The notes below the pieces were generated by a model. The model saw only the letters and a program-made list of their open reading frames with translations. It was not told the DNA's origin and searched no databases. Below, piece by piece: positions 2,366-11,770 of a stretch of 64,000 bases of DNA (position 1 is the stretch's first letter; each line of letters opens with the position of its first letter). Source of the DNA: the human T2T-CHM13v2.0 reference genome, Homo sapiens; assembly GCF_009914755.1 (NCBI RefSeq), contig NC_060926.1. One strand, written 5' to 3'. Position numbers and translations under genes: made by a program.

Positions 2366-3328
2366 ATGTGATACTTTCAAACCATAAAAAATCAGATATG
2401 TTTTTAAAGGCTATTTTGGTTGTTGTGGTAAGAATAACTTGTACGACAGTTGGGATAAAACTCATTCAACCTTGAATTGTTTTATTCTTTTCTTAACAGG
2501 CTGTATATTTTAGTCTTAGTTTAATTATTTAATTAAAATATCAATATTTATTCTAAATGTATATGCAGACTATATGAGGGGACTGGACTTAATCAATGAC
2601 TTTCAATGAGAATGGCTGAGATAAGTACCCCACCTCCCATGGGAGGTATCAAAATTAGCTGAACTTTTTTTTCAAACTACATGTGAAAAGAATGAATGAA
2701 GCAACTTTTTAAAAAAGTTTTGAAAACTGAAGAAATACTGGGTGAAAAAGTATAGGATTTTCTTCTTTAGTTCCAATGCCCTTTATCTCCATTTTACTTG
2801 AGCAACCCACTCCCACAAACCCATGCTGAACCACATATCATCTGAAAGTGCTGTTCTTTTGAAATCATAAGTTCTAGTATGCCTCACTTGAATAGACAAT
2901 CTCTCTATAATGTTATTTCTGCTTAGTTGCCTTAGACACTACTATGGTACCTCAGAATCTATCTCTAAAACTGGGTAGAAAGAGGTGCCTCTTTGAGTTT
3001 TCAGTATGTTCTCCTAGTAACAGTTTTTAGTATGACAGCACTGATTCTGTTTAGGAATGTCAATGTAGATTCCTCATTAGAACTAAGTACAGGAACTGTG
3101 TCATATTCATGCCTCCAAGATCTTGTACAATGCCTTACACATTGTAGAGGCAACAAAGATTTTACTTGATTTTAGCACTACTTCTTAAGAGGTAGGATAG
3201 CATAAGGGTTAAAAGCATGGGCATTTAACTTTTGGAAGCACATATAAAAATGCATCCAATGATATGATGTCTGGGATTTGGTTCAAAATAATATGGGAAT
3301 CAGAAATGGATGGTTTCAGTCAGTGTCT

Positions 3329-4161
3329 GGCATCAGAGAAACTGGCAGTAGCTCAGAGATAGGACCTTAGCGCTTACACCGAGACTGCCATTGAAACAAA
3401 TCCTATGGGAGAAGAGCCAAGAGCAGGTACAGAACAACAGGTGGAGAGTATGACACTGATACCTGTGTCCCTGGGAGGAAACAATTAAGAATCTTTTATC
3501 ATGTTTGCTTCAGTGCTCAGTGGTGTAGGTTGAAAGGGAAAGAAAATGGTTGTCTTGGGGCCTATGTACAGTACTTTTGCATTTTTGTGATGGGTACCGT
3601 CAAGCTTCTTAGCATTACCAGATGGCCTTCCCCCAAGTCTTCATATAAGCATGTTATACTCTGGAAAATGTTTTCTATTGAGAAGGAAATTTAAAGATTT
3701 ACAGGAAATATATCTATGAAATATGCTCAGCAAAAGAAAATAAATGTATTTGTTCAGTTCTGTTTCATTTGTTCCAGAAAATATATGGAGCTTGATGCTG
3801 TCTTGAAAAAGGATAAAGAAAGTTTGACAAAGTAGTTCTTAGGATTAAAAATTGGTGTATAAGAGGCAGTAGTTCAGATTTAAAGTTTGGATCAATGTCA
3901 TGTGCAGTCAGTGACTACCCATATCTTGCTATTCTTGTTGTGATGTATCAGAAGCTTCCTGTCACAATATTACAGCTGAGATGGTGAAGAACATCATGTG
4001 TGTAGGATCACAAACTTTTGACTCTCTTCCACTGGAAAACCAGGCCCTGAAAGCAGTTTTTATAAAACACAGAAGAGAAGACACAACTCTTATCTTTGTT
4101 TCCCAAATGTTTGCAGTTGATGACAAGGCTTTAACTGGGACCTCTCACTCAAGAAGAAATT
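3329..4161 (+). pseudogene. Degenerate intronless retrocopy of part of EFL1 (EFTUD1, elongation factor-like GTPase 1), circularly permuted
   Basis: 3329-3730 translates with frameshifts/stops to HxEKLAVAQ..GEEPRAGTEQQVESMT..ESFIMFASVLSGV..KKMVVLGPMYS..PDGLP..LEN..QEI..NML. 3731-4161 gives [86 protein letters not shown]. Both match the EFL1 protein as I recall it, but in swapped order. Confidence 0.85.
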
Positions 4162-4420
4162 AAAAATTGGAGCAGACTAAATCCACTGATAAGAGTGTTC
4201 TAATACATAATATGCTAGATCATATAGTTAGAGGCTTCTCAGCTTACTTAGTTAGATAAATGAAACCTGGACTCAATGATGACCTACATTTTATAAAATT
4301 GAGATGTCACAGCTTCTGACATAATGTGGAAGAGGGAATCCAAAAGTGCAGAGTGATCAGAATGTAGAAGTGAATTTACCACCTGCAAGCTGCATACCCA
4401 CCCTACTCCTGGAACCAATG
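4162..4420 (+). mobile_element. ERVL internal (gag) fragment
   Basis: gaaacctggac..cctaca..ttgagatg..ataatgtggaagagggaatccaaa..gaatgtagaagtgaattt resembles the ERVL gag motif ETW..WPT..EMP..W.NVEEGIQRL..GMLEWI. Confidence 0.7.
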
Positions 4421-4424
4421 ATAA

Positions 4425-5492
4425 GAGCCAACAAGATCTACTCAGGAGGAAGAAATCGCATTAACAATCTGAACAGGAAAAATTTAACATAAAGAATTAT
4501 TGATTAATAACAGAAGATTAACTACTAAGAGGAATAAAGTGACCTCTAAATAATACAGGAAAAGGAGATGTAGGGAATATGTACTTTTTGTAGGGCTAAG
4601 GTAGAGTAATGAAATAAAGATAACCTTTGAAAAGGGACTTTTTCCCCCAACCCCTTCATTCACCCAAGGCTAAGTTTCAGACTTTGTGGGAGAGGATGTG
4701 GCTATTGCCCACTGGATGGCAGAGAAACTCAATGAGGTATCACAGTCAAGGCTGACACACACAAAACACTGCTTGCTAAGATACCAGAAAAACATGGCTG
4801 GGAACCTGTCAGCTACAGTGGCAGTAAAATTAGTTTGAAAGCCACCTACTTTTCAAAACTTGCTAGTAAACTGCCTGCTGAGATGCCAATGAAACTCACT
4901 AGACAGTGTATACTACTGGGTCTCCTGACCACCACTGGATCTCCTGGATACCACCAGTAGAGAAGCTGTCAGCCAGCAAGCAAGCCACCCATTGGCAGCC
5001 ACAGCGTAAGAAAAAGAAGAAAACACTAGAACCAGAAAAAGAAGTCCCAGCCACATGTGGTGGTTCATGCCTGCAATCCCAGCACTTTGGGAGGCTGAGG
5101 CGGTGGATCCCTTGAGCTCAGGTGTTCAAGACCAGCCTTGGCAACATAGTGAGATCCCATCTCTGCAAAAAATGTAAAAATTACCTCGGTGTGGTAGCAT
5201 GCACCTGTAGTCCCAGCTTCTAGGGAAGCTAAGGTGGGAGGATAACTTAAGCCCGGGAGGTGGAAGTTGCAGTGAGCTGAGATTCTGCCACTACACTCCA
5301 GCCAGTGCAACAGAGCCAGACTCTGTCAAAGGAGAAGAAGAAAGAAAAAAGAAGAAAGAAGAAGAAAAAGAAGTAACATCTTCTTCCAGTGTTCTTCCAG
5401 GACCTTCTACTAACAAGGACTAACACTGCAAGAAGTGGCAAAGAAGAAAAGAGTGATTGAGAGCTGAGAGGCAATAAATTGATAACTTGCAA
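4425..5492 (-). mobile_element. ERVL-class LTR (LTR33/LTR41-like), interrupted by an Alu
   Basis: Right end gagctgagaggcaataaattgataacttgca is the reverse complement of an LTR33-type 5' start; left end aacaggaaaaatttaacataaagaattatt resembles its 3' end. Confidence 0.6.
5048..5373 (+). mobile_element. Alu (J/S) with GAA-rich tail, inserted in the LTR
   Basis: Dimeric Alu; agaaaaagaagt is repeated on both sides (TSD-like). Confidence 0.9.
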
Positions 5493-11519: not shown

Positions 11520-11770
11520 GAAATAATAATGATAGTTACCAATTATGGACTAATTATGTGCACCAGATACTGTACTCAGCACTACATATGACTTAACTCC
11601 TTTAATCCTCACAAGAACCCTGTAAGTCAGATACTATTATTATGATTCTCGTTTTTCAGATGAGAAAACTGAGGCTAAGAGGTCAGATAATTTGTTCAAG
11701 GTCACACAGCTATGAACTAACAAAGCCAGATTTAAATTCAGGCCTATTTGTCTCTAGAATTATGCTATAA
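11520..11770 (-). mobile_element. MIR
   Basis: tttaatcctcacaagaaccctgtaag..tttttcagatgagaaaactgaggct..aaggtcacacagcta. Confidence 0.85.

What the first reader, a model, noticed from the sequence alone, without database searches (positions are those of the whole stretch)
3329..4161. Circularly permuted EFL1 retrocopy: candidate circRNA-derived pseudogene
Seen: an intronless, decayed coding stretch in two halves. The first (3329-3730) is H.EKLA.AQ..GEEPR..QQVESMT..ESFI.FA.V.SGV..KK..VLGP.YS..PDGLP..LEN..E....N.L. The second (3731-4161) is K..K.LFVQ..ENIWS..DAVLKKDK..LGLKIG..GSQTFDS.P.E.QALKA.F..IFVS.MFAVD.KAL..PLTQEEI. Recalled knowledge: in EFL1 the second block comes before the first (AKGKKPLFVQ...[22 protein letters not shown]...EEVPPGNVL). 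So the copy starts mid-region, runs to ..GNVL, jumps back to AKGKKPLFVQ at aatatgctcag|caaaagaaaa (~3730/3731), and ends about 9 codons short of its start: almost exactly one turn of a circle. As I recall the EFL1 gene structure, both sides of the jump are exon ends (roughly exon 15 donor to exon 9 acceptor, a circle of about 0.9 kb). There is no poly(A) tail. Inference: reverse transcription of a back-spliced circEFL1. circRNA-derived pseudogenes are a known but rare class, and the heavy divergence suggests a very old example.
Basis: partly seen in the sequence, partly recalled or inferred. Interest (0 to 1): 0.9.

Follow-up and report, generated by a model that had tools for sequence, protein, structure and literature searches.

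The report
Ancient circular-RNA-derived EFL1 pseudogene fragment
A decayed, intron-free copy of seven EFL1 exons sits in a BAZ2B intron in circularly rotated order, with the last exon joined exactly to the first, which is the signature of a reverse-transcribed circular RNA: a rare, old and functionless genomic fossil.

Summary

**What is there.** Window 3329-4161 (+) is an intronless, dead copy of seven consecutive EFL1 coding exons (residues 286-583, 895 nt in the parent). The order is exon 13 (nt 51-152), 14, 15 | 9, 10, 11, 12, 13 (nt 1-22).

**The jump.** It lies at window 3729|3730. It joins the last base of exon 15 to the first base of exon 9 in an ungapped alignment. I checked both exon ends independently against the genome and the solved human EFL1 chain.

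**Extent.** The copy covers 867 of 895 nt, or 97% of one turn. It lacks 28 nt and repeats nothing. No exon outside 9-15 was found in the window.

**State and age.** Identity to EFL1 is 78.6%, with 22 indels and about 13 stops. This suggests an insertion roughly 80-110 million years ago (inference).

**What is missing.** There is no poly(A) tail, no significant target-site duplication and no sibling copy. The only other retrocopy, on chr4, is an ordinary colinear one.

**Not testable here.** RNA evidence for this back-splice, presence in other mammals, and the supplementary tables of Dong et al. 2016.

**Verdict.** A new member of a known, rare class (circRNA-derived pseudogenes). It is probably far older than the published human examples.

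The parts
3329..3426 (+). EFL1 exon 13 (my label E), nt 51-152 of 152; this is the 5' end of the copy
   Evidence: 95 aligned positions, 77.9% identity
3427..3593 (+). EFL1 exon 14 (F), complete, 167 nt
   Evidence: 167 aligned, 74.9% identity; E=2.6e-25 to chr15:80083765-80083937
3594..3729 (+). EFL1 exon 15 (G), complete, 139 nt; it ends at the donor-side base of the non-colinear junction
   Evidence: 134 aligned, 73.1% identity; donor verified
3729..3730 (+). Non-colinear junction: last base of exon 15 joined to first base of exon 9 (back-splice signature)
   Evidence: ungapped alignment across the junction; exon 9 acceptor verified
3730..3810 (+). EFL1 exon 9 (A), complete, 77 nt, carrying an 11-nt insertion at about 3758
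   Evidence: 70 aligned, 87.1% identity
3811..3937 (+). EFL1 exon 10 (B), 137 nt
   Evidence: 127 aligned, 81.1% identity
3938..4056 (+). EFL1 exon 11 (C), 123 nt
   Evidence: 119 aligned, 79.8% identity; E=3.8e-15 to EFL1 residues 365-426
4057..4140 (+). EFL1 exon 12 (D), nt 1-90 of 100; the last 10-11 nt are deleted
   Evidence: 84 aligned, 77.4% identity
4141..4161 (+). EFL1 exon 13 (E), nt 2-22; this is the 3' end of the copy, 28 nt short of where it began
   Evidence: 21 of 21 identical

Best explanation
This is a processed pseudogene made from a circular RNA, not from the EFL1 mRNA.

Proposed sequence of events:
1. In a germ-line cell of an early placental-mammal ancestor, the EFL1 pre-mRNA was back-spliced from the exon 15 donor to the exon 9 acceptor. 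This gave an 895-nt exonic circle (exons 9-15).
2. A cellular reverse transcriptase began cDNA synthesis inside exon 13. It was most likely LINE-1 ORF2p acting at a nicked target site, but the enzyme is inferred, not shown.
3. It copied backwards through exons 12, 11, 10 and 9, crossed the back-splice junction into exons 15 and 14, and re-entered exon 13.
4. It stopped 28 nt before its own starting point. A polymerase that runs into the duplex it started from would be expected to stop there.
5. The 867-nt cDNA was integrated antisense in a BAZ2B intron.
6. It has since decayed neutrally and has no function.

Shown: the permuted exon order, splice-exact junctions, restriction to the seven exons, coverage of just under one turn, and neutral decay.
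Inferred: the circular template, the enzyme, the stopping mechanism and the age.
For: (1) Permuted order with two colinear blocks: (EFL1 450-584, then 293-426).

(2) The non-colinear junction maps to exon ends on both sides in an ungapped alignment.
- The exon 15 donor (AG|GTAGGG) is confirmed because the next exon, 50.8 kb downstream, begins with residue 585 and completes the split codon 584.
- The exon 9 acceptor is confirmed because the preceding exon ends with residue 285 at a GT donor.
- By my own estimate, two random breakpoints would both land within 2 nt of exon ends with probability about (7x3/895)^2, or 5e-4.

(3) All six colinear exon junctions inside the copy (13-14, 14-15, 9-10, 10-11, 11-12, 12-13) lack introns.

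(4) Only circle exons are present.
- The flanks 3100-3328 and 4162-4400 score no better than shuffles against the circle (the fraction of shuffles reaching the observed score was 0.22-0.56).
- Of 1811 HSPs between the whole window and 150 kb of EFL1, the 6 that overlap exons 2-16 by 20 nt or more all lie in 3329-4132.

(5) Coverage is 867 of 895 nt with nothing represented twice.

(6) The 3' end is internal to exon 13, with no downstream exons and no poly(A). This is unlike a copy primed on an mRNA tail.

(7) Decay is neutral.
- Differences by codon position are 55/275, 49/271 and 71/271.
- There are 22 indel events and 13 stops in the main frame.

(8) The class is established. Dong et al. 2016 (PMC4897178, main text read in full) define circRNA-derived pseudogenes by exactly this reversed exon-exon junction, and note that they have few 3' adenosines.
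Against: - No RNA evidence for a circEFL1 (exons 9-15) could be consulted. No paper in the library names circEFL1 or circEFTUD1. The 10 papers that mention the gene together with circRNA gave only one EFL1 circRNA, a chicken one whose exon content is not stated.
- In today's human gene, introns 8 and 15 share no repeat that could pair them (0 hits at E<1e-10). This says little about an ancestor of about 100 million years ago.
- There is no significant target-site duplication. The best flank match is 12 of 14, and 22% of shuffles reached its score. There is no clear endonuclease site, so the integration mechanism is unproven.
- The two bases at the very end of exon 15 are mismatched in the copy (CA against AG). 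The junction is therefore placed to within 1-2 nt, not to the base.
- There is no sibling copy that would show the same circle inserted twice.
- The exon boundaries are my own inference from splice signals and the solved protein's sequence, not from an annotation file.
Confidence: 0.8

Rival explanations
1. The template was a linear EFL1 transcript with exon repetition (...9-15-9-15...). Such a transcript could come from trans-splicing or from a transient tandem duplication in the ancestral gene. It would have to be primed internally and truncated at both ends.
For: A linear transcript of this kind would also give a splice-exact exon 15 to exon 9 junction. It cannot be told apart from a circle by the junction alone.
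Against: - A copy primed on the mRNA tail should carry exons 16-20 and a poly(A). It has neither.
- The fragment would have to span 97% of one repeat unit by chance, with no overlap and no outside exon.
- No tandem duplication of these exons exists at the EFL1 locus or at its chr15 duplicate today. Each exon hits once per locus.
Confidence: 0.07
2. An ordinary colinear EFL1 retrocopy was rearranged at the DNA level after insertion, by tandem duplication followed by deletions or by a local transposition.
For: The copy is old and has suffered 22 indels, so structural change after insertion is possible in principle. An ordinary colinear EFL1 retrocopy does exist elsewhere, on chr4.
Against: - A DNA breakpoint has no reason to fall on a splice donor and a splice acceptor at once.
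- A tandem-duplication route would need an original copy that began exactly at exon 9 and ended exactly at exon 15.
- No leftover EFL1 sequence lies in the flanks or elsewhere in the window.
Confidence: 0.06
3. Reverse transcriptase jumped templates on a non-circular RNA whose two ends lay close together. Dong et al. raise this caveat themselves for open-ended, highly structured RNAs.
For: Dong et al. 2016 name this as an alternative source of non-colinear junctions (PMC4897178, main text).
Against: It would need a linear RNA that starts precisely at the first base of exon 9 and ends precisely at the last base of exon 15. No known processing step makes such a molecule, other than opening of the circle itself.
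Confidence: 0.04

Closest known systems
High-confidence circRNA-derived pseudogenes of Dong et al. 2016 (mouse circRFWD2 exon 6-exon 2 copies; human circPRKDC- and circCAMSAP1-derived copies)
   Same: Both are intronless copies restricted to the exons of one circle, with a reversed exon-exon junction at splice sites and little or no 3' poly(A) (PMC4897178, main text; here).
   Different: - The published human cases are reported in gorilla and chimpanzee but not in rhesus, so they are recent. This copy is about 21% diverged (K2P 0.26) and probably dates from early placental mammals.
- It is a single copy, whereas circRFWD2 has 33.
- The parent circRNA is not documented in anything I could read.
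- Their pipeline maps known back-splice junction sequences to the genome. My inference is that it would probably miss a junction this decayed.
- Their supplementary tables could not be opened, so I cannot say that EFL1 is absent from them.
Ordinary EFL1 processed pseudogene on chr4 (T2T chr4:68579885-68582732, minus strand)
   Same: It has the same parent gene, is intronless and has a similar level of decay (76.3% identity, K2P 0.29).
   Different: - It is colinear, running from exon 2 to exon 14, and includes exons outside the circle.
- It has no 15-to-9 junction.
- It is interrupted by a 1.3-kb interspersed repeat.
- On 555 shared sites the two copies are less alike (70.5%) than either is to EFL1, which points to independent insertions.
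Chimeric LINE-1-mediated retrocopies made by template switching
   Same: Both have a non-colinear cDNA structure made during reverse transcription.
   Different: Those chimeras join two different RNAs at arbitrary points. Here a single gene is joined to itself, exactly at splice sites.

Membership tests
circRNA-derived pseudogene (high-confidence sense of Dong et al. 2016) | Intronless homology to exons of a parent gene | tested here: met
   8 exon-wise HSPs; all six colinear junctions are intron-free; 78.6% identity
circRNA-derived pseudogene (high-confidence sense of Dong et al. 2016) | Exon-exon junction in reversed (non-colinear) order, lying at real splice sites | tested here: met
   exon 15 end joined to exon 9 start, ungapped. 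Donor checked, acceptor. Placement is good to 1-2 nt.
circRNA-derived pseudogene (high-confidence sense of Dong et al. 2016) | Only sequence from circle-residing exons | tested here: met
   flanks are no better than shuffles.: 6 of 6 exon-overlapping HSPs lie inside 3329-4132. Exons 17-20 were covered only indirectly, because their positions were not mapped.
circRNA-derived pseudogene (high-confidence sense of Dong et al. 2016) | A parent circRNA with the same back-splice has been observed in RNA data | not testable with these tools
   No circRNA database is on hand. Searches found no human circEFL1 in print.
circRNA-derived pseudogene (high-confidence sense of Dong et al. 2016) | Few or no adenosines at the 3' end | tested here: met
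   the copy ends inside exon 13 and is followed by five A only. This is weak evidence, because tails erode in copies this old.
Ordinary (linear mRNA-derived) processed pseudogene | Exons colinear with the mRNA | tested here: not met
   the order is 13-14-15-9-10-11-12-13
Ordinary (linear mRNA-derived) processed pseudogene | 3' end at the mRNA 3' UTR with a poly(A) tail | tested here: not met
   the 3' end is at nt 22 of exon 13
LINE-1 target-primed insertion | Target-site duplication flanking the insert | tested here: inconclusive
   the best flank repeat is 12 of 14 (3254-3267 against 4181-4194), and 22% of shuffles reached its score. A duplication of this age would be expected to be unrecognisable.

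The most novel reading that the evidence does not exclude
This could be the oldest molecular fossil of a specific back-splicing event. It would be direct genomic proof that EFL1 exons 9-15 were circularised, and that circRNAs were reverse-transcribed into the germ line, around or before the radiation of placental mammals. Its length of 'one turn minus 28 nt' would record how the polymerase behaves on a closed template with no poly(A): it stops when it meets its own start rather than rolling on. If orthologs in other mammals carry the same junction, ancient permuted retrocopies like this could be mined systematically as a dated record of circRNA biogenesis.
Probability: 0.55. Interest if true: 0.65.

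Novelty: new member of a known kind. Interest (0 to 1): 0.58.

Why it matters
CircRNA-derived pseudogenes are a recognised class, but very few are known in human. Dong et al. 2016 report 'a few' high-confidence cases, and the ones they describe are recent.

- **Age.** A splice-exact, nearly full-turn copy that is about 21% diverged pushes the class back by roughly an order of magnitude in age.
- **Time stamp.** It gives a dated record for back-splicing of a housekeeping gene.
- **Method gap.** It suggests that pipelines seeded with present-day junction sequences overlook old members.
- **Mechanism.** Initiation inside an exon without a poly(A), followed by termination just short of a full turn, bears on an open question. 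Dong et al. call the mechanism by which circRNAs are retrotransposed 'mysterious'.

The element itself is a dead fragment with no sign of function.

Tried and rejected
- **Target-site duplication.** A local alignment of the two flanks gave only a 12 of 14 match, not above shuffles.
- **Defining the empty site through a repeat split by the insertion.**
  - The upstream flank 3225-3313 belongs to an interspersed repeat (24 genome matches listed; 12 copies fetched and compared).
  - None of the 12 copies' downstream sequence aligns with window 4141-4520 clearly above shuffles or at a consistent place.
  - The repeat therefore does not resume after the insert, and the insertion site could not be refined.
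  - The downstream repeats at 4236-4403 and 4433-4608 are unrelated to it.
- **More than one turn of the circle.** No EFL1 similarity was found in either flank.
- **Protein domains and RNA families in the flanks.** Pfam found nothing (one chance hit at E=0.1). Rfam found only the Alu at about 5050-5329.
- **chr4 copy as a sibling.** Rejected, because it is colinear and includes exons 2-8.
- **The 1.3-kb interruption in the chr4 copy as a retained intron 8.** Rejected. It is a repeat with 1098 first-look candidates in the genome. It also sits 34 nt inside exon 8, not at the junction.
- **Window 11563-11716 as a possible further EFL1 exon.** Rejected. It matches chr15:80024856-80025009, but the sequence is a non-coding interspersed repeat of MIR type (name recalled) and is not an exon.
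- **Pairing repeats between today's introns 8 and 15.** None found.
- **Literature on a human circEFL1.** Nothing found. The CIRCpseudo search listed only Dong et al. together with review or overview papers, seen as listing only.

Full report

Yes.

Protein level:
- The 82-residue ORF at 3915-4160 matches PDB chain 5anb_K (human EFL1, 1120 aa) at E=3.8e-15, residues 365-426.
- The 41-residue ORF at 3363-3485 matches residues 469-500 at E=3.4e-4.
- I read the main frame through with X at each stop (13 stops in 278 codons). It matches EFL1 at E=1.4e-49 in two stretches in swapped order. Query 2-134 matches residues 450-584, and query 144-269 matches residues 293-426.
- The other two frames gave no significant EFL1 match (E=0.71, none).

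Genome level:
- The human genome is held. A search with window 3300-4200 gave 9 matches:
  - the window itself;
  - four exon-sized hits at chr15:80.08-80.09 Mb (minus strand), which is the EFL1 gene;
  - three at chr15:81.98 Mb (plus strand), a duplicate of part of the gene;
  - one on chr4.

**2. Anatomy**

I fetched 150 kb of the EFL1 locus. I set exon borders from AG/GT signals and an open frame. The frame reproduces the stretches of the solved chain printed, apart from one residue (see section 7).

| Exon | My label | T2T chr15 (minus strand) | Length (nt) |
|---|---|---|---|
| 9 | A | 80093225-80093149 | 77 |
| 10 | B | 80092442-80092306 | 137 |
| 11 | C | 80091687-80091565 | 123 |
| 12 | D | 80089379-80089280 | 100 |
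| 13 | E | 80084345-80084194 | 152 |
| 14 | F | 80083934-80083768 | 167 |
| 15 | G | 80078967-80078829 | 139 |

Together these make 895 nt, encoding residues 286-583 plus one base of codon 584.

A local alignment of window 3250-4260 to two turns of this circle picks out exactly 3329-4161. It has 642 matches, 175 mismatches and 66 gap columns, or 78.6% identity.

The window order is as follows:
- exon 13 nt 51-152 (3329-3426)
- exon 14 (3427-3593)
- exon 15 (3594-3729)
- exon 9 (3730-3810)
- exon 10 (3811-3937)
- exon 11 (3938-4056)
- exon 12 (4057-4140)
- exon 13 nt 2-22 (4141-4161)

No intron sequence is present at any of the six colinear junctions. The copy lacks exon 13 nt 23-50 (28 nt) and repeats nothing, so it holds 867 of 895 nt, or 97% of one turn.

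**3. The junction**

Across 3717-3741 the window aligns without a gap to the end of exon 15 followed by the start of exon 9. The last two bases of exon 15 are mismatched (CA in the window, AG in the gene). The junction is therefore fixed to within 1-2 nt at 3729|3730.

Both exon ends were checked independently of the copy.
- **Exon 15 donor.** Exon 15 is followed by GTAGGG. The next coding exon lies 50,778 nt downstream at 80028050, behind a pyrimidine tract and AG. It completes codon 584, and its translation is residues 585-627 of the solved chain, 43 of 43 identical.
- **Exon 9 acceptor.** The exon before exon 9 ends with a GT donor at 80094963. Its translation is residues 245-285, 41 of 41 identical. 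Exon 9 therefore begins at residue 286, directly behind its AG.

By my own estimate, two random breakpoints would both fall within 2 nt of exon ends with probability about 5e-4.

On numbering:
- The chr4 retrocopy shows seven exons upstream of my exon A.
- The one with the ATG has an acceptor 19 nt before the ATG, so it is probably exon 2.
- A case report states that EFL1 has 20 exons and 1120 residues (PMC13260665, passages only).

**4. What is not there**

- **Further EFL1 sequence in the flanks.** None. Windows 3100-3328 and 4162-4400 score like shuffles against the circle.
- **Other EFL1 exons in the window.** Of 1811 HSPs between the 64-kb window and the 150-kb locus, only 6 overlap exons 2-16 by 20 nt or more, and all 6 lie in 3329-4132. 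One low-copy hit at 11563-11716 proved to be a non-coding interspersed repeat, not an exon. The positions of exons 17-20 were not mapped, so they are covered only by the absence of unexplained low-copy hits.
- **Poly(A).** None. Five A follow the copy.
- **Target-site duplication.** None convincing.
- **Sibling copies.** None.
  - Searches with the window copy, the parental exon 15 (2 hits, both on chr15) and the parental exon 9 (3 hits: two on chr15 and one on chr4) found nothing more.
  - The short parental queries did not even recover the window's own copy, so old siblings could be missed.

**5. Age and decay**

- Against EFL1, the Kimura two-parameter distance is 0.259 over 817 sites, and 0.249 without CpG sites.
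- Differences are spread over codon positions as 55/275, 49/271 and 71/271.
- There are 22 indel events, with 50 nt lost and 16 nt gained.

This is neutral decay of a dead sequence.

On the 555 sites shared with the chr4 retrocopy, the three pairwise distances are 0.224 (chr2-EFL1), 0.280 (chr4-EFL1) and 0.387 (chr2-chr4). On a three-branch tree these give about 0.17 for the chr2 copy, 0.22 for the chr4 copy and 0.06 for EFL1 itself.

I recall that the human lineage has accumulated about 0.17 neutral substitutions per site since the split from mouse. On that basis the insertion dates from roughly that time, about 80-110 million years ago. This is an inference and needs other genomes to confirm.

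**6. Explanation**

The splice-exact reversed junction means the rearrangement was made by the spliceosome, not by DNA breakage. Three features fit reverse transcription of a closed 895-nt exonic circle:
- the copy is restricted to the seven exons;
- its 3' end lies inside exon 13;
- it covers just under one turn.

The rivals are all less economical. They are a linear exon-repetition transcript, rearrangement of a colinear retrocopy after insertion, and a template jump on an open RNA. Each has to explain why no outside exon, no poly(A) and no overlap are present, or why DNA breaks fell on splice sites.

I put the circRNA origin at 0.8. The enzyme (LINE-1 ORF2p) and the reason for stopping 28 nt short (collision with the nascent duplex) are inferences.

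Two facts about the present gene are neutral for an event this old:
- Intron 15 is very long (50.8 kb), while intron 8 is 1.7 kb.
- The two introns share no repeat today.

**7. Comparison with what is known**

Dong et al. 2016 (PMC4897178; main text read in full) established the class and its defining feature, a reversed exon-exon junction. They reported the following:
- 33 high-confidence circRFWD2 copies in mouse.
- 'A few' high-confidence human cases. The two they describe, circPRKDC- and circCAMSAP1-derived, are shared with gorilla and chimpanzee but not rhesus.
- Few 3' adenosines in such copies.
- An unknown retrotransposition mechanism.

The present copy meets every structural criterion I could test. 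The one criterion I could not test is the existence of the parent circRNA in RNA data.

State of the literature and annotation:
- No paper in the library names circEFL1 or circEFTUD1.
- The gene-plus-circRNA searches gave only a chicken EFL1 circRNA listed by coordinates (PMC9521048, passage only).
- The supplementary tables of Dong et al. were closed, so an earlier listing of this locus cannot be excluded.
- The RefSeq table supplied with the finding lists no EFL1 pseudogene in this window.
- The named pseudogenes EFL1P1 and EFL1P2 are mentioned in PMC13260665. Their locations are not given there.

One minor difference from the solved chain: the T2T translation reads D at residue 478, where the chain reads E.

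**8. Verdict**

This is a new member of a known but rare class, notable for its age and its near-exact single-turn geometry. It has no sign of function. Interest is moderate.

Noticed in passing
L015 (T2T chr4:68579885-68582732, minus strand): An ordinary colinear EFL1 processed pseudogene covering exon 2 to exon 14, about 76% identical to the gene. It is interrupted at chr4:68580529-68581841 by a 1.3-kb interspersed repeat that has 1098 first-look candidates in the genome. No homology to exons 15 onward was found in the 10 kb fetched.
   Followed up: yes
T2T chr15:81977982-81992539 (loci L003, L006, L008): A second, plus-strand copy of EFL1 exons with introns. Exon 15 is 100% identical and exon 9 is 96% identical. 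This is a recent segmental duplicate of part of the gene, presumably one of the named EFL1 pseudogenes.
   Followed up: partly
window 3225-3313: A fragment of an interspersed repeat lies directly upstream of the EFL1 copy. Genome copies are 77-97% identical over 33-78 nt. The family was not identified, and it does not resume downstream of the insert.
   Followed up: yes
window 4236-4403 and 4433-4608: Two further old repeat fragments lie downstream of the copy (66-83% identity to scattered genome places). The second looked to me like decayed LINE ORF2 coding sequence, but Pfam found nothing.
   Followed up: partly
window 5050-5329: An Alu element, seen as two partial matches to the signal recognition particle RNA family, both below the gathering score.
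   Followed up: no
window 11563-11716: A non-coding interspersed repeat of MIR type (name recalled). It matches a similar copy in EFL1 intron 16 (chr15:80024856-80025009) and is not an EFL1 exon.
   Followed up: yes
L011 (chr15:80084194-80084345, exon 13): The T2T genome encodes Asp at EFL1 residue 478, where the solved human chain 5anb_K has Glu. The old chr2 copy also reads Glu at that codon.
   Followed up: no
T2T chr15:80028051-80078828: The EFL1 intron after exon 15 is 50.8 kb, while the intron before exon 9 is only 1.7 kb. The two share no repeat at E<1e-10.
   Followed up: yes
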